A DNA stretch of 64,000 nt from an archaeon. Lineage in GTDB: Archaea; Nanobdellota; Nanobdellia; Woesearchaeales; JBDRAZ01. The notes under the pieces are model-generated. The model ran no database searches, was not told where the DNA came from, and saw only the letters and a list, made by a program, of their open reading frames with translations. Made by a program: the position numbers and the translations under genes. Below, piece by piece: positions 11,295 to 30,935 of this stretch. The stretch spans positions 42,038 to 106,037 of the forward strand of contig JBDRAZ010000103.1 in NCBI GenBank assembly GCA_043823195.1. The letters are read 5' to 3'. Position 1 is the first letter of the stretch, and each line of letters starts with the position of its first letter.

Positions 11295-11455
11295 AGAAAA
11301 GGGTGACAGCTTTCCGTGTTTCCCGTATTGAAATACAGTACAGCACGGAACGGAAACCCGCTTGACTTCCGTGTTCGAAATGGGAACGGGTAGGACCGGG
11401 TACCTTTGGCCGTCTGAAGGGGTGGAATACGTTTCTTTTTAAAAAGTTAACGGTT

Positions 11456-11605
11456 TTACCTCCTTCTCTTCCTCTCGACCTCAACCTCAATATCCTGTGA
11501 GCCGCATGCCTTGCAGACCCTCACCATTGTCACACGGGATTTCTTGCCGTGCGTATAGTTGCTCCTTGTCTTGATCTTCCTGCCTTTGCAGCTTTTGCAT
11601 ATCAT
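11456..11605 (-). CDS. small basic C4 zinc-ribbon protein (49 aa; ribosomal/transcription-factor-like)
   Basis: My own translation: MICKSCKGRKIKTRSNYTHGKKSRVTMVRVCKACGSQDIEVEVERKRRR. Two CxxC pairs spaced 24 residues apart. A GAGGT ribosome-binding site lies 7 nt upstream. Not in the ORF track because it is under 60 aa. Confidence 0.4.
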   Translation of the reverse strand: MICKSCKGRKIKTRSNYTHGKKSRVTMVRVCKACGSQDIEVEVERKRRR

Positions 11606-11721
11606 CTTGAAACCTCAGGCATCGCTGATTATTCTCAGTTCAGCCTCCATCAGAAACAGACCGCCTCCCGAACCTATAGAAACAGAACGCCACGTTCCCG
11701 ATTGGGGCGGTGAATATGGCC

Positions 11722-13606: not shown

Positions 13607-14753
13607 GTTCCTCCATCTCCTTCTTTATTGCCTGGACCTCAAAAACCCTCCAGACGCAGCAGGTGGCGCACGCCTCAGGCAATCTGCGTGTCAGTATCTG
13701 CCTCCTGTACTGGTCGAAATACTCGCCATGCCAGAGCTCCTTGAGGGTATGGTTCTTGATGTTGACCTTTGTCTCCCAGACATAGTTGTTGAAGCATGCA
13801 GCGATGTTTCCGTTGCCAATAATTGTGACATGGCTCCATGGCTCAAAGCACGGTACTGTCATGAAGTTTTCCAGCGGGTCCTCACTCTCATCCTCGATCA
13901 GCCTCTCGCCCCGCTCTATCCTCTTCCTGATTTCAGTCTTCTCAGCCTCTTCCATAAGGACCTCATGCATGGAGCCAGTCTTCTCAACATACCTGAGATC
14001 CAGAAACCTCTCGAGGTTTGACCATATTTCATGCTTCCTCAGGATCGGAAGGCATTTCCTGATTATGCCCTGGAATTCAGCCATCTGATCGATGTCCATC
14101 TTCAGCCTTTCCCCCTCTTTTGAGAACACGGTAAGCGGCAGTATGTGCAGTTCGTTGCAGCCGACGCTGCGGCCAATTTCGATAATGTTCGGCAGGTCCT
14201 TGTAGTTCCTGTTGGAGACAACGGTGTTGAACCCTATCCTTGGGCGGTCGCTCCCCATGGCCTTCTTCAGCCCTGCAAGCCTCCTGATGTTTGCAAGGAC
14301 CATGTTGTAGCACTTGGCACCCCGCAGGTCATCCTGGATCCTGGCAACAGAGCCGTCGATGCTGAATTTGACCATGGTCCACCTGCTCTTCACCAGGCCA
14401 CGCATCATCTCCTCGGTGAGGAGGCTTCCGTTCGTAACAATATCCCCATCCATGCCGCGCTTCCTGATCCTCATCATGAGCTCAAAGGTAATTTCACGCG
14501 ACAGCGGCTCCCCTCCGCCGACCAGGGCAATCTCCCTGACCCCAAGCTCTGCTGCCTCATCAACAAGCCCCATCAGGCGCTCATCACTCATCTCCTCTGA
14601 ATACCTCTTTTGAAGGTCTCCTGCGGAAACACCCTGCCTCCAGCAGCTGCGGCAGCTGAAATTGCACCTATCGGTAGGAATCAGTTCAATTGTGACCGGA
14701 GGCTGAGGTCTGCCTCTGGCCCATTCAATAAGCCTCTCGGTTTTCAGGTTCAA
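13590..14753 (-). CDS. radical SAM enzyme with SPASM/twitch-type C-terminal Cys domain
   Basis: LIEWARGRP..TDRCNFSCRSCWRQ (CxxxCxxC), VGGGEPL, VTNGSLL, C-terminal VPCFEPW..GNIAAC..CATCC. Family N-terminal motif RL..W..G. TATA ctttataaaaagg about 30 nt upstream on the minus strand. Confidence 0.75.
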   Translation of the reverse strand: MNLKTERLIEWARGRPQPPVTIELIPTDRCNFSCRSCWRQGVSAGDLQKRYSEEMSDERLMGLVDEAAELGVREIALVGGGEPLSREITFELMMRIRKRGMDGDIVTNGSLLTEEMMRGLVKSRWTMVKFSIDGSVARIQDDLRGAKCYNMVLANIRRLAGLKKAMGSDRPRIGFNTVVSNRNYKDLPNIIEIGRSVGCNELHILPLTVFSKEGERLKMDIDQMAEFQGIIRKCLPILRKHEIWSNLERFLDLRYVEKTGSMHEVLMEEAEKTEIRKRIERGERLIEDESEDPLENFMTVPCFEPWSHVTIIGNGNIAACFNNYVWETKVNIKNHTLKELWHGEYFDQYRRQILTRRLPEACATCCVWRVFEVQAIKKEMEEHAGRR

Positions 14754-14795
14754 AGCTACCCCCCGGGACAGGAATATCCGGCCTTTTTATAAAGA

Positions 14796-16574
14796 TTATC
14801 CAAGTTTCTCAAGCTTTCGCCGTGCAGATCTCTCCTCAGGTATCTCAGCAAAATCATATCCCTGTGCTCTTCTGAAGTAGCTGGCTGCCTCCTTGAGGTT
14901 GTCCAGCCTGTATGAGCAGATGGCCAGGAAATACAGTGTATGAAATATAGCGGCCTCGGGCTGCTTTACCTTCAGGCTTTTTTTCAGGCATCTTGCCGCC
15001 TCTTTGTAATTGCCCGATTTTGCATGGCACTTGCCCAGGGAAAACCAGCTCCATTCCAGCTCAGGATCCATTTCAACAGACCTCAGCAGGCAATCCCTGG
15101 CCTTTTCATATTGCCCGAGCTCCATGTGGCACTCACCCAGGTCCCTCAGGGCAAGGGCGCCGGGCGGAATATTCTCAAGCAGCCCGATCGCTTCTTCAAA
15201 TCTCCCCAGCTCCCTCTTGCACCTGGCAATGCTGTATCTTGCCAGGTCCCTTCTTTCACTGCTGTCCTCAAGCCCCTCCAGCTTTTCATAGCACCCGAGG
15301 GCCATGGCGTGCTTTCTGGTCTGCATGTAAATCCTGCCCAGCACAAGCCAGGCATTCCTATTGTCCGGGTTAACCTTAAGCAGATGTTTCATGTAATCGA
15401 TGGCTCTGCCGAACATGCTGTTTTCATAGAAGAATGTGCCGATCTCCCCGAAGCGTTCCATGACCTCCTTTTTTGTGGCCTTTTTTTTCCTGTATTTGTC
15501 ATATAGGCTGAAATGCATGTCCCTTCTGAGCATCTGGGTGCGTATGTACTGCCAGGCGCCGCATCTTGAGCATTCTGCCGGGAGCCTGCCCTCCAGCAGG
15601 TCACTGCGGAACATGGCAAACTCCCTGCTGTTCCATATGTGATTCAGGTCTGTTTTGGCGTTGAGGCCCGGAATCGTGCGCTCGCAGCAGGCACCAACCC
15701 TTCCGTCCGGGTGGATCATCAGGTTATACCAGGGCTCATAGCATGGCACAGACAGAAAACCTCTTTTCTCATATTCAATTTTCTGGTGCGCATGAGAACT
15801 CACAACAGATTTCATCTCATTGGATCTGCGGATCAGGTCAACATCAAGCTTGTCAAGGTCGCTTTCAATGCCATACTCCTCAACTTTGCCGATTGCCTTA
15901 AAGAGGGAGTTTTTCAGCTTGTCGGATTGCTCTTTGGAGAGCCTCAGCTTGTCGAGATGCCCGCTGCCCTTGATTGGATTAACATTGAGAAAATCGCATC
16001 CCATCTGTTTCGCAAGGTCAACCATGCCGGGAAGCTCTTTGTAGTTCCTGTTGCACAGCACCATTGTCAGGACCGCGCTGGGCAGCTTCACCGCGGCCGC
16101 CCTCTTGAATTCGGCCAGCTTCTGCATTGCTGCAGTCGCCCTCCCAAACGAGCCCCTCCCCCTGAGGCAATCATTGGTCTTTTCGCAAGCGCCCTCAATG
16201 CTGAAGCATATGCTCTCCCAGCCCATCAGGACAAGGTTTTTAATCATATCATCTGTGAGGAGGGTCCCGTTTGTTATCACCGTTCCGTTCATCCCGTGGT
16301 CCCTGATCTGCTTCATCAGCATGATTGTTACCGGGCGCATGAAGGGCTCGCCGCCGCCGGACAACAGCCATTCCCGCACCCCCAGCCTATGTGCCTCATC
16401 AACAATCCCTCTGAGCCTGGCATCGCTAAGCTCCGGCCTATCGCGGGACAGCCCCCTGCAGAATACGCAGTTCAGGTTGCACCTGTCAGTTACGTTGAGC
16501 TGTATCCTGAACGGCGGGCTGGTTTTTCCCTCTGACCAGTTCAGCAGCCTTTGCGTTTTTTCATAATCTTTCAT
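14796..16574 (-). CDS. radical SAM/SPASM-type enzyme fused to C-terminal TPR repeats
   Basis: N-terminal LLNWSEGKT..TDRCNLNCVFCRG, SGGGEPF, ITNGTLL, VPCYEPW..GRVGACC..CSRCG. The last ~230 aa are TPR-like helical repeats (LGRIYMQ..ALGCYEKL..). Confidence 0.75.
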   Translation of the reverse strand: MKDYEKTQRLLNWSEGKTSPPFRIQLNVTDRCNLNCVFCRGLSRDRPELSDARLRGIVDEAHRLGVREWLLSGGGEPFMRPVTIMLMKQIRDHGMNGTVITNGTLLTDDMIKNLVLMGWESICFSIEGACEKTNDCLRGRGSFGRATAAMQKLAEFKRAAAVKLPSAVLTMVLCNRNYKELPGMVDLAKQMGCDFLNVNPIKGSGHLDKLRLSKEQSDKLKNSLFKAIGKVEEYGIESDLDKLDVDLIRRSNEMKSVVSSHAHQKIEYEKRGFLSVPCYEPWYNLMIHPDGRVGACCERTIPGLNAKTDLNHIWNSREFAMFRSDLLEGRLPAECSRCGAWQYIRTQMLRRDMHFSLYDKYRKKKATKKEVMERFGEIGTFFYENSMFGRAIDYMKHLLKVNPDNRNAWLVLGRIYMQTRKHAMALGCYEKLEGLEDSSERRDLARYSIARCKRELGRFEEAIGLLENIPPGALALRDLGECHMELGQYEKARDCLLRSVEMDPELEWSWFSLGKCHAKSGNYKEAARCLKKSLKVKQPEAAIFHTLYFLAICSYRLDNLKEAASYFRRAQGYDFAEIPEERSARRKLEKLG

Positions 16575-16581
16575 TTCGATC

Positions 16582-18729
16582 CTACTGCACGCATTCCCTG
16601 CATGTAAGGTTATCGCCGGCCCTTCCCCCCAGGCTTACGCTGTCGATATATATGACCCTCTCTTCCTGCGCATTAAGATCATTGTCAATCCTGAACCTGT
16701 AGGACTTTACCATGTCAAGGTCCCGTCTCCCGTTCCCCTGAAAAGGGAATGATTCGTCCTGCGGCTCAAGCTCATCGAACAGGACGGTAATAAGTGTCCA
16801 GTTCCTGCCAAGCAGGACATCTGCGTTCCTGTATTCCCACCAGTCATCATCCCTGTCAACAATGTACAGGTGCAGCATCCCGCCCATCCCGTCCCCCCTC
16901 ACCGCAAAACTGATGCTCTCATAATCACTCCAGTCCTGACCAATATTCCGGTATGCCTTTATGTGCTTGACAACCCCCTGATCCTCGCCGAAGCTGACCG
17001 AGAGCCTGAGTGAGTTCCTGCCTTCAAATGCATGGCTGTCCGCAGACGCGGCAATAAAAACGGATGGCTCGTGGTCCGGGTCGCCGCTGCCAAATCCCTC
17101 AAAAACCATGTTGCTGAGGTCGCCGTCCTCAAAGTCATCTATGGTCTGATCTGCATCTCCCGCTTCACCTTCACTGTCAATCACCTTGTAGATGAAGAAT
17201 ATCTCCTCGCCCTTTGAGTCCCTTATCTTTTCAAGAATGGCCAGCTCCTTTCCCGCCTCCCGGGCCGCCTGTTCAAGCCCCTCCAGCCTGCCCCTGAATA
17301 TCGTGTGCCTCTTGGAATAAAACACATAGGCATTGGCCGGATCATTGACCCTGTCCTTAATGTCGGCGATATATTCCGCCGGCGGGCCCTCCTCCGCAGG
17401 ATTCTCGCTGACATAAATGTCAATTGGCGCGACCGCACCCCTCGTATTGATCAGTACCGGGTTAGATATTCCCCAATCCATGATCAGGGGTTCAGCTATC
17501 CCGTTTTCCATGAGGTATTCAGATAACCTGTACAGCGCATCTGAATAGCGGGCGGCATCGCCGGGATGTATTATGTGGGTCTCGTAGCGCAGAGTGTAGA
17601 TGCTGCCGGCAATCACCAGGAAAATTACCCAGAGCCACAGGTAAATCTTATTATGCCCAAAAACCCGGACAACAGAAACAGCAATGATCTGCGCCATGAG
17701 CGGAAGCAGTATCAGCTTATGGTGTGCGCCGAAATTTGTGACTGTTACTGTCAGGGTCAACAAGATCACCGCGAAATTGACAAGCACAAAGGCCAGGTTT
17801 CTTCTTATGCTGCGAATGCCCGCCAGGATGATAATGACTGATGCCAGAAGCAACAGGTTGTAAATCACGGGTGATACTGAGAGCAGTTGCGTGATGTTTG
17901 TGGCAAGATTGCCTGATACATCCAGGTTGTTGGTGCCGAATCTGGTGCCAGGAAAATTTGAAAAAAAGAACTTAAAGGTCCCAAGGGTGATTATGTTGTA
18001 AATCAGGAGCGGCATGCACCCCGCTGCAAAGCTGCAGGCTGCAAGGGCTGCCTCTTTGCGCTTCAGTGGCAGGACCGGCCGCACGTTCTTCCACCTGAGG
18101 AGAACCGGCGCAGACGCCGCCAGGGCAAACAGGTAGAAGAGGAACAGCAGAAGGGTGTATGTCCCGAACCCGAGCATAAAGAATCCCGCGTAAAGATACC
18201 GGCGTTTCTTTGTATCCGCATATCTCAGGAAGCAGAGCAGGGCAGCATAATAAAGCAGCATAAGGAAATGGATAATCAGTGTGCTCCGGTTCATGTAGAG
18301 GAAATTGATATGGAATGCAAGTGCGGCTGTGGCCACATATGCAACTTTCCTTGAAAAGAATCCCTTAGTGAACAGGTAATATGCCACGAGCATGAGCATC
18401 TGCAGCATAATCAGGGGAATTCTTATCGAGTATACGCTGATGTCAAAGACCCCGAAGATCCCCATATAGAGGTAGGCAAGTGTCCATCCCGCATACGGGG
18501 TAGCCATAACCGGAAGCTCCACCCCTGACACGTTCACGCTGTACTCCACCATTCTTTCCTTAACCTCGTCACTCAGCCCGCCGGACAGCATCTGCATGGC
18601 AACTATCGGCTCAATCACGGCATCATAGGAGAGCGCAGGCATGCCAATATCACGGATATTAAGGAAGAAGAACAATGCCAGCACCGCAGCAAGAAAGGCA
18701 ATCTCGCTTCTCCTCATCTGTCTTTTCAT
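16582..18729 (-). CDS. polytopic membrane protein (GT-C-type glycosyltransferase-like) with C-terminal CBM11/CIA30-like beta-sandwich domain
   Basis: About 13 predicted TM helices in the first 450 aa. The C-terminal ~200 aa are paralogous to 24126..24905 and 30936..31688 (shared ..DWSxYxxxxFAVxGDGxGGxLxLxxVDxDxDWWxYxxxxxLxxxxWTxxTxxFxxLxxxxxxFPxxGxG..YRxRID). Confidence 0.55.
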   Translation of the reverse strand: MKRQMRRSEIAFLAAVLALFFFLNIRDIGMPALSYDAVIEPIVAMQMLSGGLSDEVKERMVEYSVNVSGVELPVMATPYAGWTLAYLYMGIFGVFDISVYSIRIPLIMLQMLMLVAYYLFTKGFFSRKVAYVATAALAFHINFLYMNRSTLIIHFLMLLYYAALLCFLRYADTKKRRYLYAGFFMLGFGTYTLLLFLFYLFALAASAPVLLRWKNVRPVLPLKRKEAALAACSFAAGCMPLLIYNIITLGTFKFFFSNFPGTRFGTNNLDVSGNLATNITQLLSVSPVIYNLLLLASVIIILAGIRSIRRNLAFVLVNFAVILLTLTVTVTNFGAHHKLILLPLMAQIIAVSVVRVFGHNKIYLWLWVIFLVIAGSIYTLRYETHIIHPGDAARYSDALYRLSEYLMENGIAEPLIMDWGISNPVLINTRGAVAPIDIYVSENPAEEGPPAEYIADIKDRVNDPANAYVFYSKRHTIFRGRLEGLEQAAREAGKELAILEKIRDSKGEEIFFIYKVIDSEGEAGDADQTIDDFEDGDLSNMVFEGFGSGDPDHEPSVFIAASADSHAFEGRNSLRLSVSFGEDQGVVKHIKAYRNIGQDWSDYESISFAVRGDGMGGMLHLYIVDRDDDWWEYRNADVLLGRNWTLITVLFDELEPQDESFPFQGNGRRDLDMVKSYRFRIDNDLNAQEERVIYIDSVSLGGRAGDNLTCRECVQ

Positions 18730-19976
18730 TTGCTATGGTACCTTCTTACATTCACGAGCGCAGTTGCCCGGGAGATGCCGTAATCCGTGGATATCTCGCC
18801 CTGGTTGCAGCATGACATCACCTGATAATCAATGCGGGCGGGATCGCAGATAACAGCAAAGGCCAGGATCATGCAGCCGGCGCCGCCCGCCTTTGTGAAT
18901 GTCAGGGGGCCCGAATAGGCCAGCCTGAAAAGGCTAGGCAGCAGGAGCAGGCTTCGCCACCGCATTGCCGTGATGAGCCTCATCCAGCTTATGATGCGGG
19001 CATTGCCCGGGATAGCGGCCAATCTCCTGAGGTCAACAAAATCGGCAAGTGTTCTTACCCTTTTTCCCCTGAACAGGGGGTAGTACAGGTTGTAAAAGCA
19101 TTTCTTCCTGCCAAAGATATGCGAGAGCAGGTACAGGAGCGGCTGGCTGCGGTATACCCTGCCTGTTGAAACCCTCCCCCCGGTTGACCTGCAGAGTTCA
19201 TCCATAATATCCTCAACGCACATCAGGCCTCCGGGCATCTTCATGTGCGCCACCGGCCTGAACACCACTGCTTTAACGAACCTGTTATTCAGGGCATAGC
19301 GCAGTATCCCTGGCGTCTCGCCAATATTATTCTCATCCACCGTGGCTTCGATTACCGTTGGCATGCGGCATCCCCTCAGGTTCCGGAGCGCCAGGAGCTT
19401 GCTGTCCAGGAGGTCAGCTCCGCGACGCCCGATATAATAGTCCCTGTCAAAACCGTCAAACTGAAGATGAACCTCAGAGACCCCTGATTTCTTAAGCATC
19501 TCAACATAAGGCTTCTGAGCCAGCCTGATGCCGTTTGTATGCAATAGGGCAGCATTGCCTGATTCTCTGACTATCCTGATTATGTCGGCCAGGTCTTCCC
19601 TGATTGTCGGCTCCCCGCCGAACAGGCCGATCTTCTTTCCCCTGAATCCCGCCAGCAGCTGCCTGATCTCCCTGAGCGACGGCTCACGGTATTTGTGGTA
19701 GTTGGCCCTCACAAAGCATTCCCTGCAGCTGATGTTGCAATCAAGCGTCAGCATCAGCTGATACAAATCAGGCCCCGGACCCTTGCCGGGATATGAGAAA
19801 TAGGAATCATGCATTGCCCGGTAATCCCCCGGATGCGAAGAAAGCATCACACTGAAATCCCCGTGGTCGCTGCAGCTCTTGACCATCTTCACTGTCCCGG
19901 ACGTTTCAACCACATCTGCACTGATCTTCCTGAGGCATACCGGGCACAATGAGTGCGTCTTTCTCAGCACGTTCAT
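18726..19976 (-). CDS. zinc-ribbon-radical SAM fusion enzyme (paralog of 22728..24047)
   Basis: N-terminal CPVCLRK..(20)..CSDHG ribbon, then LTLDCNISCRECFV (CxxxCxxC), GLFGGEPT, LHTNGIRL. C-terminal Cys cluster (..CDP..SCCNQG). Confidence 0.6.
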   Translation of the reverse strand: MNVLRKTHSLCPVCLRKISADVVETSGTVKMVKSCSDHGDFSVMLSSHPGDYRAMHDSYFSYPGKGPGPDLYQLMLTLDCNISCRECFVRANYHKYREPSLREIRQLLAGFRGKKIGLFGGEPTIREDLADIIRIVRESGNAALLHTNGIRLAQKPYVEMLKKSGVSEVHLQFDGFDRDYYIGRRGADLLDSKLLALRNLRGCRMPTVIEATVDENNIGETPGILRYALNNRFVKAVVFRPVAHMKMPGGLMCVEDIMDELCRSTGGRVSTGRVYRSQPLLYLLSHIFGRKKCFYNLYYPLFRGKRVRTLADFVDLRRLAAIPGNARIISWMRLITAMRWRSLLLLPSLFRLAYSGPLTFTKAGGAGCMILAFAVICDPARIDYQVMSCCNQGEISTDYGISRATALVNVRRYHSK

Positions 19977-19980
19977 AACC

Positions 19981-20008
19981 TTAATAAACTATGCTCGGTT
20001 TATATAAT
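19981..20008. promoter_or_regulatory. 38-bp divergent promoter region with TATA-like boxes for the minus-strand rSAM operon and the plus-strand B12-rSAM gene
   Basis: ccttaataaactatgctcggtttatataatttatt between divergent start codons at 19976 and 20014. Confidence 0.35.
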
Positions 20009-20013
20009 TTATT

Positions 20014-21448
20014 ATGGCGGATGTCATTCTTGTGCAGCCCAGAAGCGAGTTTCTTGATCGTCTGCAGGTGCACCCAAACATCCCTTTGAACCTTCTGGCG
20101 CTCGCATCCCGTCTGGACAGCTACAATGTCCGGATTATTGACCAGCGCACGGAACCCGGCTGGAGGGGCCAGCTCAAAAGGCACCTCCGGACTGACCCGG
20201 TTGCAGTAGGCATATCCTCAATAACCGGGAAACAGATCTCAAGCGCGCTGGATATTTCACAATTTGTCAAAAAGCACTCAGCGGCCGCAGTTGTCTGGGG
20301 CGGCCCGCACGCAACCCTTGAGCCCAGGCAGACCGTTGAAAACCAGTACATCGACATTGTGGCTGAAGGTGACGCAGAGGAGTCGTTCCCATCTGTTGTT
20401 GACCATCTTGAGGCGGGCTCCGGCCTGGACAGGGTCAAGGGCATCTGGCACAAGAGCAAAAGGATCACCTGCAATGGCCCGTCAAAGCCCTTTGACCTCA
20501 ACATGCAAAGGGACCTGCCTTTTGGGCTTCTTGACATGAGGAGGTACCTGGGTAAGGAAAAAAGGCTCATGATCGAGACCTCCCGCGGGTGCCCATCTGC
20601 CTGCACATACTGTTCTGCAAACAGGCACCCCTACAACGCCATGTCCCCTGAAAAAGCCGTTGACCTGATCCAGGCAGTATCTGGCTCGTATCATCTGGAG
20701 CACATCGCGCTTGCTGATTCAAATTTTTTTTTTTGACCACCGGCGCGCCCTGAGGATTATCCGGGGAATGATCAGGGAAAAGGTTGCCGCCAGGCTGTGG
20801 GTCCCAGGAACCCACATCATTCCGTTTTCGCGCTATGCAGGCCCTGAGCTCCGGCTTGTGCAGAAAGGCTGCAGCTATCTTGGGGTTGGAGCGGAATCAG
20901 GTTCCGACGCAGTCCTGAAAGAAATCGGAAAGAACATTACTGTCAGGCAGGTCACTGACTTCAACAGGAAGATAAAGGAATACGGCATCACGGTAAACTA
21001 CAATTTCATGAGCGGCTTCAGGGGCGAGACAGTGGATGACCTGGCATCAACAATCAGGCTTATGCTGGACCTGATCAGGCAGAACCCAAACGCAATCGGC
21101 GGACCGGTCAACCCTGTTCAGATCCTCCCTAGGACCCAGGTCTACAAACAGGCTGTACATGATGGCCTGCCGCCTCCGCGCAGGCTTGAAGACTGGATCC
21201 AGTTCAACAGCACCCTGGGAAGCAAGCTTGGGCATCTTCCGTGGGTTGACGCAGAACGGGCCGGCCTCCTCAGGGGCATCTATATATCTTCGCTGTTTCT
21301 GAACGACCAGTCGTCATACCTTCACACAAAGGCACTCAAGCCCGTGCATAAGCTGTTCAGGCGCATCTCAGAATACCGGCTGCGCAACCTGGCCTTTGGG
21401 CTTATGCCTGAAAGAGCAGTATACAACGCTCTTGAGGGGTTGCTCTAA
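20014..21448 (+). pseudogene. B12-binding (class B) radical SAM enzyme, frameshifted in a T11 homopolymer (20724-20734)
   Basis: ORF 20014..20736 has the B12-domain N-terminus and SRGCPSACTYCS, and ends ..ADSNFFF*. ORF 20711..21448 continues the TIM-barrel in the +1 frame. Joined they read ..ADSNFFFDHRRALRII.. One extra or missing T in the run restores the frame. Confidence 0.6.
20724..20734 (+). repeat. T11 homopolymer at the frameshift point
   Basis: Counted directly: aaa + 11 t + gacc. Confidence 0.8.
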
Positions 21449-22728
21449 AAGTGCTCGCCCCGCGCATGCCTCAGCCAGTAGTAGGCCCCATACACAGGCA
21501 GGAATCCCATAACCGGATACCTGAGGGGGCCTGGGTTATAGAACTGCATCTTCTCAAGCAGGTTTGTTCCCGGCCGCACTATCCCTTCCCTCACTGCCTG
21601 CTCATATAATTCTGTATGGGGGTAGATCCTGATGAGGCCGAAGAGCACCCTTCTGCCAGGCGACGATATCTTTGCCGCAAGCCGCAGCGTTTCAGATAAT
21701 GTGGAGACGGTCTCGCCGGGCGGATTAAGGAAGAACATGAATCCTGTATTGAGCTCTCTTGTTTTTTTTGCGCAGTCAATTATCTGGCCCACAGTAATTT
21801 CCTTCTTCAGCATGTCCAGCGTCCTCTGTGAGCCGGCATCAGGCGAAAATTCAAGGTAGCTGCAGCCCGATCTCTTCATCAGGCTGATGCTCTCCCTGTC
21901 TGCGTGGTCCGCCCTCATATAGGTGGCCCACGAAACATCCAGGTTCCTTGCGGCAATTCCCTTGCAGATGCCCCTCAGCTGCCGCTTATTGTCGCCGAAT
22001 ATGCAGTCGGCAAACCATGCCTTCCTGATTCCGTGGCCGGCCAGCTCCTCAACCTCATCAGCCACAGCCGCGGGGTCCCTGTACCTGACCTCGGCATTCT
22101 GGATGTTTGAGTATGTGCAGTATGTGCACTTGTAGCGGCACCCCCTCCTGGTCTGCACGCCATGGTCGGTATACCTGCTGAGCCGGATTCCGGGAAAATC
22201 CCTTTTTACCGGGCCGTCAATATCATGGATTGCGCTCGCCGGCCTGGTGAAGACAACCCTCCTGTTTTTCCTGTAGCATATCCCGCGGACTGATCCGGGA
22301 TCCCGCAGGTTTTCCAGCAGCTCGCAGACTGACCTCTCACCCTCTCCGATAATTCCGAAATCGATCCCCGTCTTTTCCATGATCTCCCTGCTGAACAATG
22401 TGAACCCTGATCCGCCCGCGATAAGGATGGCATTGCTGTTCTCTTTTATCAGCTTTACAGCCTTATAAAACCAGAAGATGTTCCTGTTCCTGATAAAGAG
22501 GTTCTCTGTCTGCGAGTCCGCATTCCTCAAGGATACCCCTATGACATCAAAGCCATCTCCTGCCTTCCTCCGCAGGCCCCCAAAGGGGTCTTCGGCAACA
22601 TTCATGTCAAATATCTCAACAGTGTGGCCTGCATTCTCAAGGGCTGTGCCTATATAGCAGAGGTTAAGCGGGAAAACCTTCCTTTTCCTGATATCCTGGC
22701 CAGGGGATTGCACAAGGAGGCAGTGCAC
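21445..22728 (-). CDS. B12-binding (class B) radical SAM enzyme (GTG start overlapping upstream TAG as TAGTG)
   Basis: Motifs VHCLLVQSPGQD..(B12 domain)..RRGCRYKCTYCTYS..FGDNK. The ORF track extends it to 22815, but a GTG at 22726-22728 overlaps the stop of the upstream gene. Confidence 0.6.
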   Translation of the reverse strand: MHCLLVQSPGQDIRKRKVFPLNLCYIGTALENAGHTVEIFDMNVAEDPFGGLRRKAGDGFDVIGVSLRNADSQTENLFIRNRNIFWFYKAVKLIKENSNAILIAGGSGFTLFSREIMEKTGIDFGIIGEGERSVCELLENLRDPGSVRGICYRKNRRVVFTRPASAIHDIDGPVKRDFPGIRLSRYTDHGVQTRRGCRYKCTYCTYSNIQNAEVRYRDPAAVADEVEELAGHGIRKAWFADCIFGDNKRQLRGICKGIAARNLDVSWATYMRADHADRESISLMKRSGCSYLEFSPDAGSQRTLDMLKKEITVGQIIDCAKKTRELNTGFMFFLNPPGETVSTLSETLRLAAKISSPGRRVLFGLIRIYPHTELYEQAVREGIVRPGTNLLEKMQFYNPGPLRYPVMGFLPVYGAYYWLRHARGEHF

Positions 22729-24047
22729 TATCTCATCCTCTCCCTCTCTATGTTCCCGTATGCCAGGCTGCTGGTTCTTCCGGAGCTCGAAATCTCGCCG
22801 CCGTCGCAGTTGCATGCGCTCTGGGTATCGAGGTTATGCATGTCGCATATGCTGCCGAATTCGATTATCAGGTATCTTCTCGTGAGACCAGACTGGCCAA
22901 AGACAAAGTGCTTTCCAAGGCGTTTCATCGCCAGTGTCTGGATCGCGCGGTATATCAGTCCGAGTGAGCCCCGGTTCAGATTCGTGAGGAGTCTGAACAG
23001 GACAATCCGGTTTTTTGATCTGATAAAATCCATCAGTGCATCCTGCATGTCATCAAGCCTCATGATCCCGCTTATCGGATCATAGCCCCCCTTGTTTCTC
23101 CGGACTACGTAGTAGTGGTTGTAGAAGCACCTGGGCTGGCCGAGCATATAAAAAAAGGCATAAATGAGCCTCTGGAAATTCAGGACATCTGCCTTTGTGA
23201 TCCTCCCATCGGTGCCCTTCTCAATGATGCCTATCTGCTCATCTATTGTCAACGAAACATCCCTGCTTAGTCCGGCCCTCCCGAGGTGGCTGTAGCTCTT
23301 GTAGAGGATTGCCCTTACAAACCCATGCTGCGCAGCATAATCCAGTATGCCTGCCATATTATTTTCATTAATTCCCCTTCCCACCGCAACCTGCAGTATG
23401 GTCGGCATGCTGAGCATCTCAAGATTCCTAAGGGCCCTGAGCTTTACGTCAAGCAGCTTTTTTCCCCTAAAAATCGAGCAGGGCTTATCAGAGAATCCGT
23501 CGAACTGCAGGTGCACCTCAACAAGCCCGGCACGCTTCAGCGATTTGAGGTATCCATGATCCGCTAGCCTTATCCCGTTAGTATGCAGGGCCGGGATGTT
23601 CCCGCTCTTCAGCACAGCCCTGATTACCTCAGCCAGGTCATCCCTCAGGGTTGGCTCGCCCCCGAACAAACCAATCTTGCAGTTCCGGAGGTCTTTCAGC
23701 TGCCCGGTAATCTGCTGGACAGATGGTTCACTGTATTCCCTGTTTGCGCTGACATGGCATATCGGGCAGTCCAGGTTGCACCGAAGGGTCAGGAACAGGT
23801 TATAGTACTCCTGGCTCATGTTCCATAGCAGGCCCTTTGAGCAGTCATTAAGCGAGAAATAGGCCTCAGAGGCAGCCCTGTAATAGCTGCTGTCATTTGA
23901 GATGACCGAGGATATCATCCCATGCTTTTTGCACCGGCGCTCCAGGAAAACCCTCGGCTTCCTCTCAACAACAGAAGCATTCAGCTCAGACACGCATATG
24001 GGGCAATAGGCCTTAGTCTTCCTTAATATCATGCATGCAGTAATCAA
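22728..24047 (-). CDS. zinc-ribbon-radical SAM fusion enzyme (paralog of 18726..19976)
   Basis: CPICVSEL..(20)..CKKHG, LTLRCNLDCPICHV, GLFGGEPT, LHTNGIRL. Collinear with 18726..19976 including HLQFDGF. Confidence 0.6.
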   Translation of the reverse strand: MITACMILRKTKAYCPICVSELNASVVERKPRVFLERRCKKHGMISSVISNDSSYYRAASEAYFSLNDCSKGLLWNMSQEYYNLFLTLRCNLDCPICHVSANREYSEPSVQQITGQLKDLRNCKIGLFGGEPTLRDDLAEVIRAVLKSGNIPALHTNGIRLADHGYLKSLKRAGLVEVHLQFDGFSDKPCSIFRGKKLLDVKLRALRNLEMLSMPTILQVAVGRGINENNMAGILDYAAQHGFVRAILYKSYSHLGRAGLSRDVSLTIDEQIGIIEKGTDGRITKADVLNFQRLIYAFFYMLGQPRCFYNHYYVVRRNKGGYDPISGIMRLDDMQDALMDFIRSKNRIVLFRLLTNLNRGSLGLIYRAIQTLAMKRLGKHFVFGQSGLTRRYLIIEFGSICDMHNLDTQSACNCDGGEISSSGRTSSLAYGNIERERMR

Positions 24048-24125
24048 AACGGTTTATATAATCTTTTTCATCCCGGTCTCATCCGGCCCATCGCGAGCCA
24101 GAATTCGGCGGTTTCAGGCAGAAAC

Positions 24126-24905
24126 TCAGCCAAGGGCGATTCTGTCAATATACAAAACGCGGTCTTCGCCAAGATTATCCGGAGTCGGCTGATCGATGCG
24201 TATTCTGTAATTTGTCACCCGGTCAAGATTCTTCACGCCATTGCCCCTGAACGGAAAATTTTCCCCCGGCGCTTCCAGGCTTTCAAACGGTATTGTAATT
24301 GATGTCCAGTTTCTCATATGCAGCACATCCCCGGAGGCATAATGCCACCAGTCTCCGTCTTCATCAACGACCCAGAATTGCAGAACCCCGCCTGACCCGT
24401 CCGGCTTCAATGACAGTTGGACACTCCCGTACCTGCTCCAGTTTTGACTTATTCTCTTGTATATCTTTATGTGCTTCCCGGCCTCATATTCGCCGAAATT
24501 GAACTCGATCATCATCGAGCTGTTGCCATCAAAGGAGACGCCTGAGGCAATGCTGGCATTCATTCTGATGGTGGGCTCATTGATGTCGTCTTTTCTTCCG
24601 AACCTTTCAAAAACAAAACCATCAATGCCCCGCTCAAAATCATCAAGTACTGTCAGGTTGCCCTCGGCCCTGCCAAAGGCGTCATCAAACAGCCCATCCC
24701 GCAAGCCTGCATCCTGTCTGCCTTCATTGTTATGCACCCAGAAGAAAAAGGCCACGATGAGAAATGCACTGATCCCCATGGCCAGGAAAAATGTCTTTCT
24801 TTCCCAGTCATCGGCTCTGCTTTTCCCGGTCAAGTCGTGCTCAGGTGATTTCATCGATCCTGCATAAGTGATGCTCTTATTTATTTCTGCCTGTCTGCCG
24901 GACAA
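24126..24905 (-). CDS. membrane-anchored CBM11/CIA30-like beta-sandwich domain protein
   Basis: One N-terminal TM helix (FFLAMGISAFLIVAFFFWV), then a domain paralogous to the C-terminus of 16582..18729 and to 30936..31688. Confidence 0.5.
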   Translation of the reverse strand: MSGRQAEINKSITYAGSMKSPEHDLTGKSRADDWERKTFFLAMGISAFLIVAFFFWVHNNEGRQDAGLRDGLFDDAFGRAEGNLTVLDDFERGIDGFVFERFGRKDDINEPTIRMNASIASGVSFDGNSSMMIEFNFGEYEAGKHIKIYKRISQNWSRYGSVQLSLKPDGSGGVLQFWVVDEDGDWWHYASGDVLHMRNWTSITIPFESLEAPGENFPFRGNGVKNLDRVTNYRIRIDQPTPDNLGEDRVLYIDRIALG

Positions 24906-25125
24906 TTCAGGGGCTCAAACACGCACCCGGGCAATAAGGCCCTGTCTGATTATCATGCACAAAAATTTCGCGGAATTGTCAAGAACCCATGGTCCACGAA
25001 GGGGGGATGTATCGGATGATGTCTGCTCATGCGCTGTGCAATCGGTTTTTGGAAATGATCAATAATTTTCAGCCAGTGATTGATCCCGGGGGCCAGGACC
25101 AGATGGAAAATTTCTGACTTTCTGA

Positions 25126-25186
25126 CATTGCGAAGGGCATTAAATCCAGCATTTCAGGGCGGGGCACTTTCGGTGGATTTTTATGA
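25126..25186. repeat. copy A of a recurrent intergenic GC-hairpin/U-tract element (ttgcgaagggc..gggcggggcactttcggtggatttttatga)
   Basis: Shares cgcagggc / c(c)cgcac / cgg(c)gg(g/a)ttttt(at) blocks with copies at 31952, 34662, 52757 and 57278. Confidence 0.45.
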
Positions 25187-25203
25187 TGCCGGTTTTCAAT
25201 AAG

Positions 25204-25215
25204 GTTTTTATAATC
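25204..25215 (+). promoter_or_regulatory. TATA box (ggtttttataatc) about 25 nt upstream of 25236
   Basis: AT-rich box at the canonical distance from the start codon. Confidence 0.4.
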
Positions 25216-25235
25216 TTTAATCTTTGACATGACTC

Positions 25236-26765
25236 ATGTCCCGCTCATTACTCATCTCCCGCTCATTATTGCTCATTTTGCTTGTCCTTCCGGCGGCATG
25301 CAATCCGGCAAAGCCCGGCAATACAAAGGTTGTGGTCCTGGCGATCGACGGCCTGTCATGGAACGTTATTCAGCCCATGCTCAACAACGGAGAGCTTGAA
25401 ACCTTTGGAAGCCTGATGGATAATGGCAGCTACGGCACACTCAATGTCCCGGAATGGGAAAGCTCACCCGTATTATGGACAACCATGGCAACCGGACGCC
25501 CCCGCCAGTATCATGGTATAGATGGGTGGTATTATTTCGATGCTGAGACTAGGTCATGGATGCCGACCGAATCAACAGCGAGGAAACTGCCGGCAATCTG
25601 GAACATTCTGTCAGGTTTCAACAGGACAGAAGTCATAATTGACTGGCCCGTCACCTCTCCGCCTGAGCAGATTAACGGGATCATGATAACCCGCTTCAAC
25701 TCAATTGAGCATATGGACATTTATCCTCATGACCGGCGGCCCGAGCTGGAGTCGCTTTTATCCTCTGCAGTCTATGATAATTCCCACCCAGACCCGTGGG
25801 TGAATTCCGAGCTCAGCGGCTTTGCCCGCTGGAAACTGCTGACATCAGCCTACCTGCGCGAATCCCCTGACCTTCTTGCCTCATATCTTCAGACCGCGGA
25901 TGGTCTGCAGCACAGGCTGTGGAAATACTATGAGCCTGAGCTGTTTGTCCATCCTGTCTGGGGGATCGATGAGGAAAACATAAAAGCCTACGGACAGGTA
26001 ATACCTGGCCATTACCGGGATATAGATGGCTACATTGGATCGCTCCGGGCCGGGCTGGATGAGCACACAGTCCTGATAATTATCTCTGATCATGGCCTAA
26101 GGCCGGTACCCAGCCCGACAATCAAGAAGTTCGACATTAACCGCATACTGCAAAAGGGGGGCCTGTTATCCCTTAACGCGGCAGGTGATATTGATTACAA
26201 CAGAAGTTCTGCCTACGAATGCGGGACTGCAGAAGAAGACATCAAAGTCTGCCTGAACCCTGATTACCTCAAAGATGCCTCGCGTCTCAGTCACGTGATC
26301 GACTCTGTCCGCGTAGGGGGCATCCGCCCTCTGATGCTTATGGAAGCTGAAGACTCCTATGCAGTCGTGCGGAATCTGCTCTTCAGAACCAGCCTGCCTG
26401 AGCAGATGGGCACAATTGAGGTCTTGTCTCATGACTACAATCTTTCGGGTTTTATAACGCTCTCCTTTTCAGGCGGCCACGACAACAGCGGCGTCATCTT
26501 CATGTCCGGGCCGAACCTCAAGAAGAACGTCCACCTGCGCAATGCAAGCCAGTTTGATGTGCTGCCGACGGTCCTGTATATCCTGGGCTTGCCTGTTGCA
26601 GAGGATATGGAGGGGCAGGTCCTCACCGAGGCATTTGATGCAGCTTACCTGGAAAAGAATCCGGTCAGGTTCATTGCCAGCTATGGGAAGAGAAGCATAA
26701 CCCCGGACCTGGCATCCAGCGACATGGAGTTAATTGACAAGCTGCGGTCTGTTGGCTATGTGTAG
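25236..26765 (+). CDS. secreted alkaline-phosphatase-superfamily enzyme, nucleotide pyrophosphatase/phosphodiesterase (NPP)-like
   Basis: Signal peptide/lipobox (LLLILLVLPAAC). VVVLAIDGLSWNV and SSPVLWTTMATGRPRQYHGI resemble NPP motifs (..TGLYPESHGI). The sulfatase C/S-x-P-x-R motif is absent. Confidence 0.55.
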   Translation: MSRSLLISRSLLLILLVLPAACNPAKPGNTKVVVLAIDGLSWNVIQPMLNNGELETFGSLMDNGSYGTLNVPEWESSPVLWTTMATGRPRQYHGIDGWYYFDAETRSWMPTESTARKLPAIWNILSGFNRTEVIIDWPVTSPPEQINGIMITRFNSIEHMDIYPHDRRPELESLLSSAVYDNSHPDPWVNSELSGFARWKLLTSAYLRESPDLLASYLQTADGLQHRLWKYYEPELFVHPVWGIDEENIKAYGQVIPGHYRDIDGYIGSLRAGLDEHTVLIIISDHGLRPVPSPTIKKFDINRILQKGGLLSLNAAGDIDYNRSSAYECGTAEEDIKVCLNPDYLKDASRLSHVIDSVRVGGIRPLMLMEAEDSYAVVRNLLFRTSLPEQMGTIEVLSHDYNLSGFITLSFSGGHDNSGVIFMSGPNLKKNVHLRNASQFDVLPTVLYILGLPVAEDMEGQVLTEAFDAAYLEKNPVRFIASYGKRSITPDLASSDMELIDKLRSVGYV

Positions 26766-26859
26766 CCTGACTGACCAGCTGGTTCGGTCTGTGGGATTCT
26801 GCCCGCTGGATTCTGCTCCTGTAGGTTCCCCCAGTCAGCAGGCAGCTCAGCCATTCTCC

Positions 26860-27984: not shown

Positions 27985-27997
27985 CTAAGATAGCCCC

Positions 27998-29199: not shown

Positions 29200-29361
29200 T
29201 CTGCTCTAGCTCATATATCCTATAATGCCCCCGGCACATGATGGGAAAGTCAAGTTTTTTATATAGTTTATGATGGGCCGGGGCATGCCTGCCTTGCGGC
29301 ACGGGTGCGTCAAACCCTTTTTAGGCCCGGGAAAATAATATCTCGCGCCTTGCCTGGCACC

Positions 29362-29375
29362 TAGCTAACATTTAT
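29362..29375 (+). promoter_or_regulatory. TATA box (acatttatatagat) about 30 nt upstream of 29403
   Basis: AT-rich box at the canonical distance from the start codon. Confidence 0.4.
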
Positions 29376-30926: not shown

Positions 30927-30935
30927 CAGGATCAG

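What the first reader, a model, noticed from the sequence alone, without database searches (positions are those of the whole stretch)
18726..24047. Two paralogous Zn-ribbon + radical-SAM fusion enzymes of unclear family
18726..19976 and 22728..24047 share an N-terminal C-P-x-C...(20 aa)...C-x-x-H-G ribbon, CxxxCxxC, GLFGGEPT, LHTNGIRL and HLQFDGF blocks, and a Cys-bearing C-terminus. This architecture does not match the SPASM paralogs or the B12 class. They sit inside the glycan operons and could be novel radical enzymes acting on a sugar, lipid or protein substrate.
Basis: seen in the sequence. Interest (0 to 1): 0.55.

Follow-up and report, generated by a model that had tools for sequence, protein, structure and literature searches.

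The report
Two short tetraether-synthase-like radical SAM enzymes
The two genes are real, anciently diverged paralogues of the archaeal tetraether lipid synthase (Tes/GDGT-MAS) fold that lack one of its iron-sulfur clusters; they belong to an uncharacterised branch found next to B12-radical-SAM and glycan-transfer genes in uncultured archaea and bacteria, so the family is now known but the reaction is not.

Summary

The architecture is not of unclear family. It is PF23545 + PF04055, the architecture of the tetraether lipid synthase Tes/GDGT-MAS (MJ0619, PDB 7TOL).
- The family profile aligns to 7TOL end to end (E 2e-78).
- AlphaFold models of both proteins (pLDDT 90-93) match 7TOL at TM 0.80-0.83. 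Every other structure matches only at about 0.4.
- The "Zn ribbon" has exactly the C-X2-C-X20-C-X2-H spacing of Tes's rubredoxin-like iron site.
- The "Cys-bearing C-terminus" is three invariant cysteines where Tes holds its catalytic C-terminal [4Fe-4S].

They are not Tes orthologues. They score 140-157 bits against a cutoff of 450. The N-terminal auxiliary cluster insert is absent, and Met439 and Tyr459 are replaced.

A and B fall in separate orthogroups of a large, uncharacterised, MAG-only branch (DPANN, Omnitrophota, PVC, Acidobacteriota). B12-radical-SAM genes lie within 10 kb in 80% of loci. In archaea, GT-C (PMT_2) transferases are also nearby.

The likely chemistry is Tes-like radical bond formation on a lipid-anchored envelope precursor. 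The substrate is unproven.

The parts
18726..19976 (-). Paralogue A (416 aa; NCBI MFH1850419.1): short Tes/GDGT-MAS-like radical SAM enzyme and the more divergent copy (RS motif CNISCREC)
   Evidence: ORF. Pfam PF23545 2.4e-16 and PF04055 7.8e-15. NCBIfam Tes 139.5 bits against cutoff 450, TrsS 150.4 against 490. AF2 pLDDT 90.4, with 7TOL at TMq 0.83.
19863..19946 (-). A: rubredoxin-like metal ribbon C11-X2-C14-X20-C35-X2-H38
   Evidence: Same spacing as C9X2C12X20C33X2H36 of GDGT-MAS. The Cys residues are invariant in 60 homologues.
19716..19739 (-). A: radical SAM cluster motif C80-X3-C84-X2-C87
18807..19100 (-). A: span holding the three invariant C-terminal cysteines (C293, C377, C390) and the hydrophobic helical cap between them; predicted three-Cys auxiliary [4Fe-4S] site
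22728..24032 (-). Paralogue B (434 aa from ATG 24032; the ORF extends to TTG 24047; NCBI MFH1850423.1): short Tes/GDGT-MAS-like radical SAM enzyme
   Evidence: AF2 pLDDT 93.4, with 7TOL at E 5e-34 and TMq 0.80.
23922..24005 (-). B: rubredoxin-like ribbon C10-X2-C13-X20-C34-X2-H37
23757..23780 (-). B: radical SAM cluster motif C85-X3-C89-X2-C92
22806..23129 (-). B: span from C302 through C396 to C409 (three invariant Cys) with the helical cap; Glu413 ('GEIS') sits at the position of Tes Tyr459
19996..20008 (-). Promoter-like 13-mer ATTATATAAACCG, 19 nt upstream of A's ATG
24050..24062 (-). Identical 13-mer, 17 nt upstream of B's ATG 24032
16582..18729 (-). GT-C (PMT_2) membrane glycosyltransferase with a C-terminal CBM_11-like domain; its ATG overlaps A's TGA stop (ATGA), which suggests translational coupling
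   Evidence: Pfam; sequence.
21445..22728 (-). B12-binding radical SAM gene directly downstream of B; a GTG start at 22728 shares one base with B's TAG stop (TAGTG); the longest ORF runs up to 22815
   Evidence: Best NCBIfam hit is TIGR04072 'lipid biosynthesis B12-binding/radical SAM', 247 bits against cutoff 360.
24126..24905 (-). Membrane-anchored CBM_11-like protein immediately upstream of B (context)
13590..16574 (-). Two SPASM radical SAM genes (one fused to TPR repeats), same strand, downstream of A and the GT-C gene (context)

Best explanation
A and B are functional members of an uncharacterised 'short' branch of the tetraether-synthase (Tes/GDGT-MAS, MJ0619) radical SAM family.

Each protein is predicted to carry three metal sites, where Tes has four:
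- an N-terminal rubredoxin-like Cys3His iron site (the 'ribbon');
- the SAM-cleaving CX3CX2C [4Fe-4S] cluster;
- a C-terminal [4Fe-4S] held by only three invariant cysteines. This leaves one open iron and its sulfides, beneath a hydrophobic helical cap.

The second auxiliary cluster of Tes ([4Fe-4S]N), its labile Met439 ligand and Tyr459 are missing or replaced.

Inferred mechanism, by homology to Tes:
1. The reduced RS cluster cleaves SAM.
2. 5'-dA• abstracts H from an unactivated carbon of a substrate held between the barrel and the cap.
3. The substrate radical is captured or oxidised by the C-terminal cluster.
4. A second step completes a new C-C (or C-heteroatom) bond.

The two paralogues are old duplicates, in different orthogroups. 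Each heads its own transcription unit. A is translationally coupled to a GT-C glycosyltransferase and B to a B12 radical SAM gene.

The most likely substrate is therefore a lipid-anchored envelope precursor, such as a polyprenyl-phosphate-sugar or a glycolipid, that the neighbouring B12/SPASM rSAMs and GT-C enzymes also process. It is unlikely to be archaeol for GDGT synthesis.

What is shown: family, fold, ligand pattern and gene linkage. What is inferred: cofactor content, chemistry and substrate.
For: - Family and fold: PF23545 + PF04055. phmmer to 7TOL gives E 1.3e-44. The 66-sequence family profile aligns to 7TOL residues 22-500 at E 2.2e-78. AF2 models score pLDDT 93.4 and 90.4, and match 7TOL/7TOM at TMq 0.80-0.83, with the next-best structures near 0.4.
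- Ligands: the ribbon spacing is identical to the Tes rubredoxin site. Nine invariant Cys fall in three groups of three. B C302 aligns with MJ0619 C338, and B C409 with C455.
- Cap: the helical cap is retained, at 96 aa and 49% hydrophobic, against 103 aa and 48% in MJ0619.
- Not Tes: 140-157 bits against a cutoff of 450. The N-aux insert is absent.
- Distinct orthogroups that co-occur on related contigs.
- Linkage: ATGA overlap with the GT-C gene. TAGTG overlap with the B12 rSAM.
- B12 rSAM genes lie within 10 kb in 33 of 41 loci, with a median of 3 per locus.
- PMT_2 genes lie next to the archaeal members.
- Lipid-flavoured partners elsewhere: PEMT/ICMT-like, UbiU-like U32, LPG_synthase_TM.
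Against: - No member of this branch has been characterised, so chemistry and substrate rest entirely on homology to one enzyme at 22-26% identity.
- The surrounding genes are overwhelmingly nucleotide-sugar enzymes. That fits a soluble sugar substrate equally well.
- The position of Tes Tyr459 is Glu in 45 of 66 sequences. The branch also has its own conserved polar residues: K119, the FQK286-288 insert, and R312. Both suggest a more polar active site than Tes.
- The third C-terminal Cys lies 4 residues away from Tes C438/M439 in the alignment.
- The window lacks the small rSAM, the FAD oxidoreductase and the U32 partner that define the bacterial cassette. Functions may therefore differ between sub-branches.
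Confidence: 0.45

Rival explanations
1. They modify a soluble nucleotide-activated sugar. The Tes scaffold would have been recruited to sugar chemistry. The three-Cys C-terminal cluster would act as substrate anchor or electron sink, as in MoaA, BtrN or DesII-type enzymes. The conserved Glu would act as general base.
For: The genes are embedded among UDP-glucose dehydrogenase, NDP-sugar epimerases/dehydratases, DegT aminotransferases, nucleotidyltransferases, GT1/GT2, a flippase and a carbamoyltransferase. DegT is a recurrent partner in other phyla. Glu replaces Tyr459, and the branch has extra conserved Lys/Arg. After Tes, the nearest RS-core neighbours are BlsE, MoaA and DesII. The B12 rSAM neighbours also hit AprD4 and HpnJ.
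Against: The full Tes fold, including the hydrophobic cap that forms the lipid pockets, is retained. No Tes-fold enzyme is known to act on a sugar. Arrays of up to 7 B12 rSAMs beside the gene are unusual for a single sugar. At least one operon (L071) has no sugar genes at all.
Confidence: 0.25
2. They tailor membrane core lipids directly, by tail coupling, cross-linking or a related reaction on archaeol-type or scavenged host lipids. The B12 and SPASM rSAMs would be the methylase/cyclase/cross-linker partners, matching the Tes + Grs/Gmm + Gms trio.
For: The only characterised homologue couples lipid tails. The three rSAM classes known to modify archaeal lipid tails are Tes-like, B12 (GrsA/B, Gmm) and SPASM (Gms) (PMC11186832, PMC11214058). 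These are exactly the three classes amplified in this window. The B12 rSAM coupled to B best matches the 'lipid biosynthesis B12 rSAM' model. PEMT/ICMT-like partners occur elsewhere.
Against: None of the neighbouring rSAMs reaches a curated cutoff. No lipid-biosynthesis gene is present in the 64 kb. The residues universally conserved in archaeal Tes (Met439, Tyr459) and the N-aux cluster are absent. The context is dominated by glycan genes.
Confidence: 0.15
3. They are bona fide tetraether/macrocyclic archaeol synthases (Tes orthologues).
For: Tes is the best structural and profile match. Tes homologues have been reported in DPANN MAGs (PMC8941075).
Against: They score 140-157 bits against the NF045702 cutoff of 450, and the single-sequence matches cover only about the first 305 of 486 profile positions. 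The [4Fe-4S]N insert with C73/C77/C80 is absent. Met439 and Tyr459, which are completely conserved in 1000 archaeal homologues, are Gly/Ala and Glu here. There are two to three divergent paralogues per genome, set in glycan clusters.
Confidence: 0.07
4. They modify a protein or peptide, for example the adjacent CBM_11-like surface proteins, as the SPASM rSAM neighbours might.
For: The SPASM neighbours best match peptide or cofactor maturases, weakly. Secreted CBM_11-like proteins are adjacent.
Against: No RiPP recognition element and no precursor-like small ORF is conserved. The Tes fold has no known peptide substrate. The CBM_11-like genes track the GT-C genes rather than the Tes-like genes.
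Confidence: 0.05

Closest known systems
Tes / GDGT-MAS (MJ0619; PDB 7TOL, 7TOM; NCBIfam NF045702)
   Same: Same Pfam architecture (PF23545 + PF04055). Identical C-X2-C-X20-C-X2-H rubredoxin-like site. Same CX3CX2C and GGEPT/TNGI/LQFDG core motifs. Full-length fold match at TM 0.80-0.83. C-terminal cluster domain with conserved equivalents of C338 and C455. Helical cap of similar length and hydrophobicity.
   Different: Only 22-26% identity, and scores about one third of the equivalog cutoff. Lacks the 20-residue insert with C73/C77/C80 ([4Fe-4S]N). Met439 becomes Gly/Ala, with a family-invariant Cys four residues downstream. Tyr459 becomes Glu. Has an FQK insert and conserved K119/R312 that Tes lacks. 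About 70 aa shorter. Sits in a glycan/B12-rSAM context rather than a lipid context. Multiple paralogues per genome.
TrsS radical SAM (seleno)protein (NCBIfam NF045646)
   Same: Highest-scoring NCBIfam model (150 and 174 bits). Same superfamily, with ribbon and RS core.
   Different: Far below the cutoff of 490. The single-sequence matches stop near profile position 305 of 441. TrsS is itself uncharacterised, so it adds no functional information.
'Bacterial Tes homologues' proposed for brGDGT / membrane-spanning lipid synthesis (Zeng 2022; Sahonero-Canavesi 2022)
   Same: Distant Tes relatives in Acidobacteriota, Planctomycetota and others, with unverified function. This branch includes MAGs of those phyla.
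   Different: Those were defined by BLAST thresholds to Tes. The branch described here is defined by loss of the N-aux cluster and by a fixed cassette (small rSAM, FAD oxidoreductase, Tes-like, U32, B12 rSAMs) that, as far as my literature searches show, has not been described.
MoaA (GTP 3',8-cyclase)
   Same: RS core similarity (48-64 bits for A and B; 78-94 bits for several branch relatives). A C-terminal auxiliary [4Fe-4S] with three Cys and an open iron.
   Different: No ribbon, a different C-terminal domain, structural match only at TM ~0.4-0.5, and scores below cutoffs.
Gms (GMGT synthase, SPASM) and GrsA/B, Gmm (B12 rSAMs)
   Same: They are radical SAM enzymes that modify unactivated lipid carbons. 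Their classes match the neighbours of A and B.
   Different: They have different folds from A and B. The neighbours here do not reach any curated family.

Membership tests
Radical SAM superfamily (PF04055) | CX3CX2C cluster motif, GGE SAM-binding motif, Pfam score above gathering threshold | tested here: met
   A scores 55.9 bits and B 65.5 bits against a cutoff of 29.5. CNISCREC and CNLDCPIC are present, and GGEPT is invariant.
Tes / GDGT-MAS superfamily (ribbon + RS + C-terminal cluster domain) | N-terminal PF23545 ribbon with C-X2-C-X20-C-X2-H spacing | tested here: met
   PF23545 at E 2.4e-16 and 2.8e-11. Spacing is identical to C9X2C12X20C33X2H36.
Tes / GDGT-MAS superfamily (ribbon + RS + C-terminal cluster domain) | Full-length fold equivalent to 7TOL | tested here: met
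   Foldseek E 5e-34 and 1.2e-30, TMq 0.80-0.83 over 477-490 columns. Profile alignment to 7TOL residues 22-500.
Tes / GDGT-MAS superfamily (ribbon + RS + C-terminal cluster domain) | C-terminal [4Fe-4S] ligated by three Cys | tested here: inconclusive
   Three invariant C-terminal Cys are present. Two align with MJ0619 C338 and C455. The third is offset by 4 residues from C438. Geometry could not be checked because no coordinates were available. The paper names the Cys ligands only as '3 Cys + Met'.
Tes equivalog (NF045702, tetraether lipid synthase) | Whole-protein score of at least 450 bits | tested here: not met
   139.5 bits (A) and 156.8 bits (B). Ten diverse relatives score 118-194 bits.
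Tes equivalog (NF045702, tetraether lipid synthase) | N-terminal auxiliary [4Fe-4S]N (C73, C77, C80 + His) | tested here: not met
   The linker between ribbon and RS motif is 41-47 aa with 0-1 Cys, against 61 aa with 3 Cys in MJ0619. Only 3 of 218 relatives have at least 3 Cys there.
Tes equivalog (NF045702, tetraether lipid synthase) | Met439 labile ligand and Tyr459, completely conserved in 1000 archaeal homologues | tested here: not met
   The Met439 position is Gly (B) or Ala (A). The Tyr459 position is Glu in A, B and 45 of 66 relatives.
Tes equivalog (NF045702, tetraether lipid synthase) | Couples phytanyl termini to give GDGT or macrocyclic archaeol | not testable with these tools
   Requires expression and lipid analysis.
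TrsS (NF045646) | Whole-protein score of at least 490 bits | tested here: not met
   150.4 and 174.4 bits.
SPASM/twitch radical SAM | C-terminal SPASM domain (PF13186) with CX9-15GX4C...CX2CX5CX3C | tested here: not met
   A and B have no PF13186 hit, while the neighbouring paralogues do.
Class B (cobalamin) radical SAM | N-terminal B12-binding domain (PF02310) | tested here: not met
   No PF02310 hit.
MoaA | Score above the equivalog cutoff (231-325 bits) | tested here: not met
   41-64 bits, RS core only.

The most novel reading that the evidence does not exclude
The Tes-like enzymes, together with the amplified B12 and SPASM radical SAM genes, form a radical lipid-tailoring toolkit in organisms thought unable to build their own lipids (DPANN archaea, Omnitrophota) and in anaerobic PVC, Acidobacteriota and Myxococcota MAGs. 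It would couple, cross-link or methylate the hydrocarbon tails of scavenged membrane lipids or polyprenyl carriers. The products would be new membrane-spanning or heavily branched (glyco)lipids. In bacteria, the conserved cassette of small rSAM, FAD oxidoreductase, Tes-like, U32 and multiple B12 rSAMs would be a candidate for the orphan branched or overly branched GDGT pathway.
Probability: 0.2. Interest if true: 0.8.

Novelty: new variant of a known kind. Interest (0 to 1): 0.55.

Why it matters
Tes is the only characterised enzyme with this fold. It performs one of the hardest reactions in lipid biochemistry: sp3-sp3 coupling through a cluster-sulfur intermediate.

A large sister branch keeps the catalytic C-terminal cluster but has lost the second auxiliary cluster. 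At least 150 representatives of 50%-identity clusters score 245 bits or more, and all are from uncultured lineages. This branch is a natural experiment on which cofactors that chemistry needs.

The branch is tightly linked to arrays of B12 radical SAM genes and, in DPANN archaea, to GT-C transferases. That points to unknown envelope chemistry in ultra-small, host-dependent microbes.

There is also a practical warning. Surveys that count 'Tes homologues' to infer GDGT or brGDGT producers could misassign members of this branch if loose thresholds are used.

Tried and rejected
- **SPASM and B12 classes:** rejected, no domains found.
- **TrsS:** top NCBIfam hit but far below cutoff, and itself uncharacterised.
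- **Neighbouring SPASM and B12 rSAMs, tested for known lipid enzymes:** none reaches a curated cutoff. The best hits are TIGR04072, BzaD, HpnJ, AprD4 and a tungsten-cofactor maturase, so they do not settle lipid versus sugar.
- **FAD 'Amino_oxidase' partner in bacterial loci:** I first took this as a CrtI-like lipid desaturase. I rejected it as evidence. Its full-length match is to the unnamed PRK07208 group, and CrtI, HpnE and Glf match only the N-terminal FAD motif.
- **The ~260-aa cassette protein:** no significant family, only faint PP-loop-like hints.
- **Mss:** the paper text did not reveal its domain class, so I could not test whether the reported 'Mss hits in Woesearchaeia' are these B12 genes.
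- **NJ tree:** timed out. I replaced it with average-linkage clustering on Kimura distances, which supports the groupings but is not a rigorous phylogeny.
- **afdb50 fold library:** unavailable.
- **tRNA scan:** no tRNA found, so it gave no taxonomic anchor.
- **Literature searches:** found no description of this branch or cassette.

Full report
**1. The observation**

Both ORFs are present on the minus strand. A is 18726..19976 (416 aa). B is listed as 22728..24047.
- BLASTP of A against B gives 38% identity over the whole length, E 5e-81.
- Both proteins exist in NCBI only as 'MAG: radical SAM protein [archaeon]' (MFH1850419.1 and MFH1850423.1) on a 160-kb contig. Each is a singleton at 90% identity.

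One correction concerns the start of B. An exact 13-mer, ATTATATAAACCG, lies 19 nt upstream of A's ATG and 17 nt upstream of ATG 24032 in B.
- These are the only two exact copies in 64 kb.
- With up to 2 mismatches there are 7 copies against 0.5 expected.
- It looks like an archaeal TATA-type promoter in front of short-leader transcripts.
- B therefore most likely starts at ATG 24032 (434 aa, as NCBI annotates it), not at TTG 24047.

**2. What family they belong to**

Pfam finds PF23545 ('HMPTM N-terminal zinc ribbon', named after MJ0619) plus PF04055 in both proteins. MJ0619 is now known as the tetraether lipid synthase Tes/GDGT-MAS.
- B matches the solved structure 7TOL at E 1.3e-44 over residues 8-288.
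- A profile of 66 relatives aligns to 7TOL from residue 22 to 500 at E 2.2e-78.
- AlphaFold2 models are confident: B has pLDDT 93.4 and pTM 0.93, A has 90.4 and 0.91.
- Foldseek places 7TOL/7TOM far ahead of everything else, with E 5e-34 and 1e-30 and TMq 0.80-0.83.
- BlsE, SkfB, MoaA, DesII and viperin match only the RS core, at TM ~0.4.

So the architecture is a known one, not an unclear one.

**3. Anatomy against the Tes structure**

I rebuilt MJ0619 residues 2-480 from the HMMER output. I checked the numbering against residues named in the structure paper: C9, C12, C33, C73, C77, C80, C98/102/105, F106, R210, Q268, S271, M439 and Y459. I then aligned it to the family.
- **(i) Ribbon.** It is C-X2-C-X20-C-X2-H in A, B and nearly all relatives. 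This is exactly the Cys3His rubredoxin-like iron site of Tes. It is probably a redox site rather than a structural Zn ribbon.
- **(ii) N-terminal auxiliary cluster.** The 20-residue insert carrying C73/C77/C80 of [4Fe-4S]N is absent. The linker is 41-47 aa with 0-1 Cys. Only 3 of 218 relatives have at least 3 Cys there.
- **(iii) RS core.** The RS motif, GGEPT, TNGI, LQFDG and Arg210 are conserved.
- **(iv) C-terminal cysteines.** Three are invariant (B C302/C396/C409). C302 aligns with C338 and C409 with C455. The third lies four residues downstream of Tes C438-M439, where the family has Phe-Gly/Ala.
- **(v) Tyr459.** Lloyd et al. report that Tyr459 and Met439 are completely conserved in 1000 archaeal homologues. 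Tyr459 is Glu in A, B and 45 of 66 relatives.
- **(vi) Helical cap.** In Tes the cap between the first two C-terminal Cys forms the lipid pockets. It is kept here with similar length and hydrophobicity: 96 aa and 49% against 103 aa and 48%. A's cap is 58% hydrophobic.
- **(vii) Branch-specific polar residues.** K119, an F-Q-K insert at 286-288 and R312 are conserved in the branch and absent from Tes.

**4. Why they are not Tes or TrsS**

A and B score 140-157 bits against the Tes equivalog cutoff of 450, and 150-174 bits against the TrsS cutoff of 490. As single sequences they match only about the first 305 profile positions. Ten diverse relatives also fail both cutoffs. TrsS is itself uncharacterised. 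As of a 2026 review, Tes is the only characterised member of this fold, and the 'bacterial Tes homologues' remain untested.

**5. The branch and the paralogy**

- The 5.8-billion-protein search gave 1658 hits. The best non-self hit is only 50% identical.
- A profile search of 1.84 billion representatives gave 1124 clusters at E ≤ 1e-30. The 150 best listed all score 245 bits or more.
- B groups with P0002-P0012 at 45-50% identity.
- A is a long branch. Its nearest relatives (40-44%) form another group: P0122, P0042, P0044 and P0047-P0050.
- A third group is P0014-P0030.
- One related contig (L001) carries one gene of each group, and another (L002) carries two.

The duplication is therefore old and retained, which implies distinct roles.

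A scan of GTDB species representatives found 61 loci, all from MAGs. The taxa are Nanoarchaeota, Undinarchaeota (three loci per genome), many Omnitrophota, Planctomycetota, Verrucomicrobiota/Lentisphaerota/Kiritimatiellia, Holophagae/Thermoanaerobaculales, Myxococcota, Gemmatimonadota and 'Rickettsiales' bins.

**6. Context in the window**

Positions 12-57 kb form one large envelope-glycan and radical-SAM island. It contains:
- seven SPASM rSAM paralogues;
- six B12 rSAM genes, one of them split;
- three GT-C (PMT_2) genes and three CBM_11-like domains;
- a type I phosphodiesterase;
- UDP-glucose dehydrogenase, several NDP-sugar epimerases/dehydratases and four DegT aminotransferases;
- GT1, GT2, a flippase and a carbamoyltransferase.

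A's TGA stop overlaps the ATG of the GT-C/CBM_11 gene as ATGA. B's TAG stop shares a base with a GTG start of the next B12 rSAM as TAGTG.

**7. Context elsewhere**

I classified six-frame ORFs of all fetched loci with phmmer. Among 41 loci of at least 12 kb:

| Partner | Loci | Note |
|---|---|---|
| B12 rSAM within 10 kb | 33 (80%) | median 3, maximum 7 per locus |
| ~335-aa rSAM | 63% | 19 times directly upstream |
| U32 protein | 34% | best hit UbiU, below cutoff; 12 times directly downstream |
| ~260-aa unknown protein | 32% | |
| DegT | 32% | |
| PEMT/ICMT-like | 15% | |

- A FAD oxidoreductase of the unnamed PRK07208 group occurs in 32 of 54 bacterial loci. It usually abuts the Tes-like gene.
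- Archaeal loci, L001, L002 and the window lack the FAD, U32 and 260-aa partners.
- Instead they combine several Tes-like paralogues with B12 rSAMs and PMT_2 genes.
- A more distant 486-aa relative has none of this context.
- One bacterial operon (L071) consists of small rSAM, FAD oxidoreductase, Tes-like, B12 rSAM and PEMT, with no sugar genes.

B12 rSAMs are therefore the universal partner. Glycan genes are a frequent partner but not an obligatory one.

**8. Mechanism**

- **Shown:** fold, ligand pattern and gene linkage.
- **Inferred from Tes:** SAM cleavage at the RS cluster, H-abstraction from an unactivated carbon, and capture of the radical by the three-Cys C-terminal cluster. In Tes this capture is a C-S bond to a cluster sulfide. 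A second radical step then completes the bond.
- **Inferred from sequence:** loss of [4Fe-4S]N suggests electrons reach the RS cluster from the rubredoxin-like site alone. The Glu and Lys/Arg substitutions suggest a more polar reaction centre than in Tes.

Three facts point to a lipid-anchored envelope precursor, such as a polyprenyl-phosphate-sugar or a glycolipid, as the substrate class that reconciles all the evidence:
- the lipid-pocket cap is retained;
- GT-C enzymes use polyprenyl-phosphate-linked donors (established knowledge of the GT-C/PMT/ArnT class);
- A is translationally coupled to one such enzyme.

I hold this at about 0.45. A soluble NDP-sugar substrate stands at ~0.25 and direct core-lipid tailoring at ~0.15. 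True Tes activity (~0.07) and a protein substrate (~0.05) are unlikely.

**9. Verdict**

The finding is real and more than a routine annotation. The 'unknown architecture' claim is replaced by a precise statement: two paralogues of a short, N-aux-cluster-less branch of the Tes/GDGT-MAS family, with uncharacterised function. It is a new variant of a known kind, with moderate interest of 0.55. The most novel reading is a radical lipid-tailoring toolkit in DPANN, Omnitrophota and other anaerobes, and possibly the orphan branched-GDGT pathway in bacteria. The evidence does not exclude it, and I rate it at about 0.2.

Noticed in passing
window 20014..20736 (+) and 20711..21448 (+): One B12-binding radical SAM gene is split across two reading frames. 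The B12 domain and the start of the RS domain are in the first ORF, and the rest is in the second. This is either a frameshift pseudogene or an assembly error. It lies between A and B on the opposite strand.
   Followed up: partly
window 12119..13606 (-) and 11722..12261 (-): A second split gene. An rSAM core with a 240-aa N-terminal extension and its SPASM domain sit in overlapping ORFs in different frames.
   Followed up: partly
window 16582..18729, 24126..24905, 30936..31688: A CBM_11-like extracytoplasmic domain occurs three times, always tied to a GT-C (PMT_2) gene. It is fused to one, encoded right after another (29403..30926), and free-standing upstream of B. This looks like a gene-fusion link between GT-C and this domain.
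   Followed up: partly
window 12119..16574, 26860..29302, 32013..33128, 34712..35803: Seven SPASM radical SAM paralogues, most sharing an N-terminal motif of the type 'W..G....P..I.......CN..C..C'. One is fused to TPR repeats. None reaches any NCBIfam cutoff.
   Followed up: partly
loci L013, L015, L016, L018-L022, L024, L029, L033, L067, L070 (and others): A fixed, apparently undescribed cassette in Omnitrophota, Planctomycetota, PVC, Acidobacteriota and Myxococcota MAGs. The order is (FAD oxidoreductase of the PRK07208 group) - DegT - ~335-aa rSAM - Tes-like rSAM - U32 (UbiU-like) - ~260-aa unknown - several B12 rSAMs.
   Followed up: partly
L006 (Omnitrophota, JGI 3300026162) and L052, L058: Runs of seven or more consecutive B12-binding radical SAM genes are interleaved with two to four Tes-like genes and a MiaB-like methylthiotransferase. 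In L006 an LPG_synthase_TM gene and a GT2 gene follow.
   Followed up: no
proteins P0067, P0085, P0087, P0089-P0099, P0103, P0109, P0116: More distant relatives of the branch carry an N-terminal hemerythrin domain (PF01814) fused to the ribbon and RS core, giving 600-760 aa. This may be an O2/NO-sensing or protective module on an oxygen-labile enzyme.
   Followed up: no
window 19996..20008 and 24050..24062 (also 1244, 6573, 25202, 37188, 53036 with 2 mismatches): A TATA-box-like 13-mer, ATTATATAAACCG, is identical in front of A and B. It is enriched in the window (7 copies against 0.5 expected with up to 2 mismatches). This is consistent with archaeal promoters and short leaders.
   Followed up: partly
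window 1..64000: No tRNA gene was found in the 64 kb. GC content is even at 0.49-0.55 across the island, so there is no compositional sign of recent transfer.
   Followed up: no
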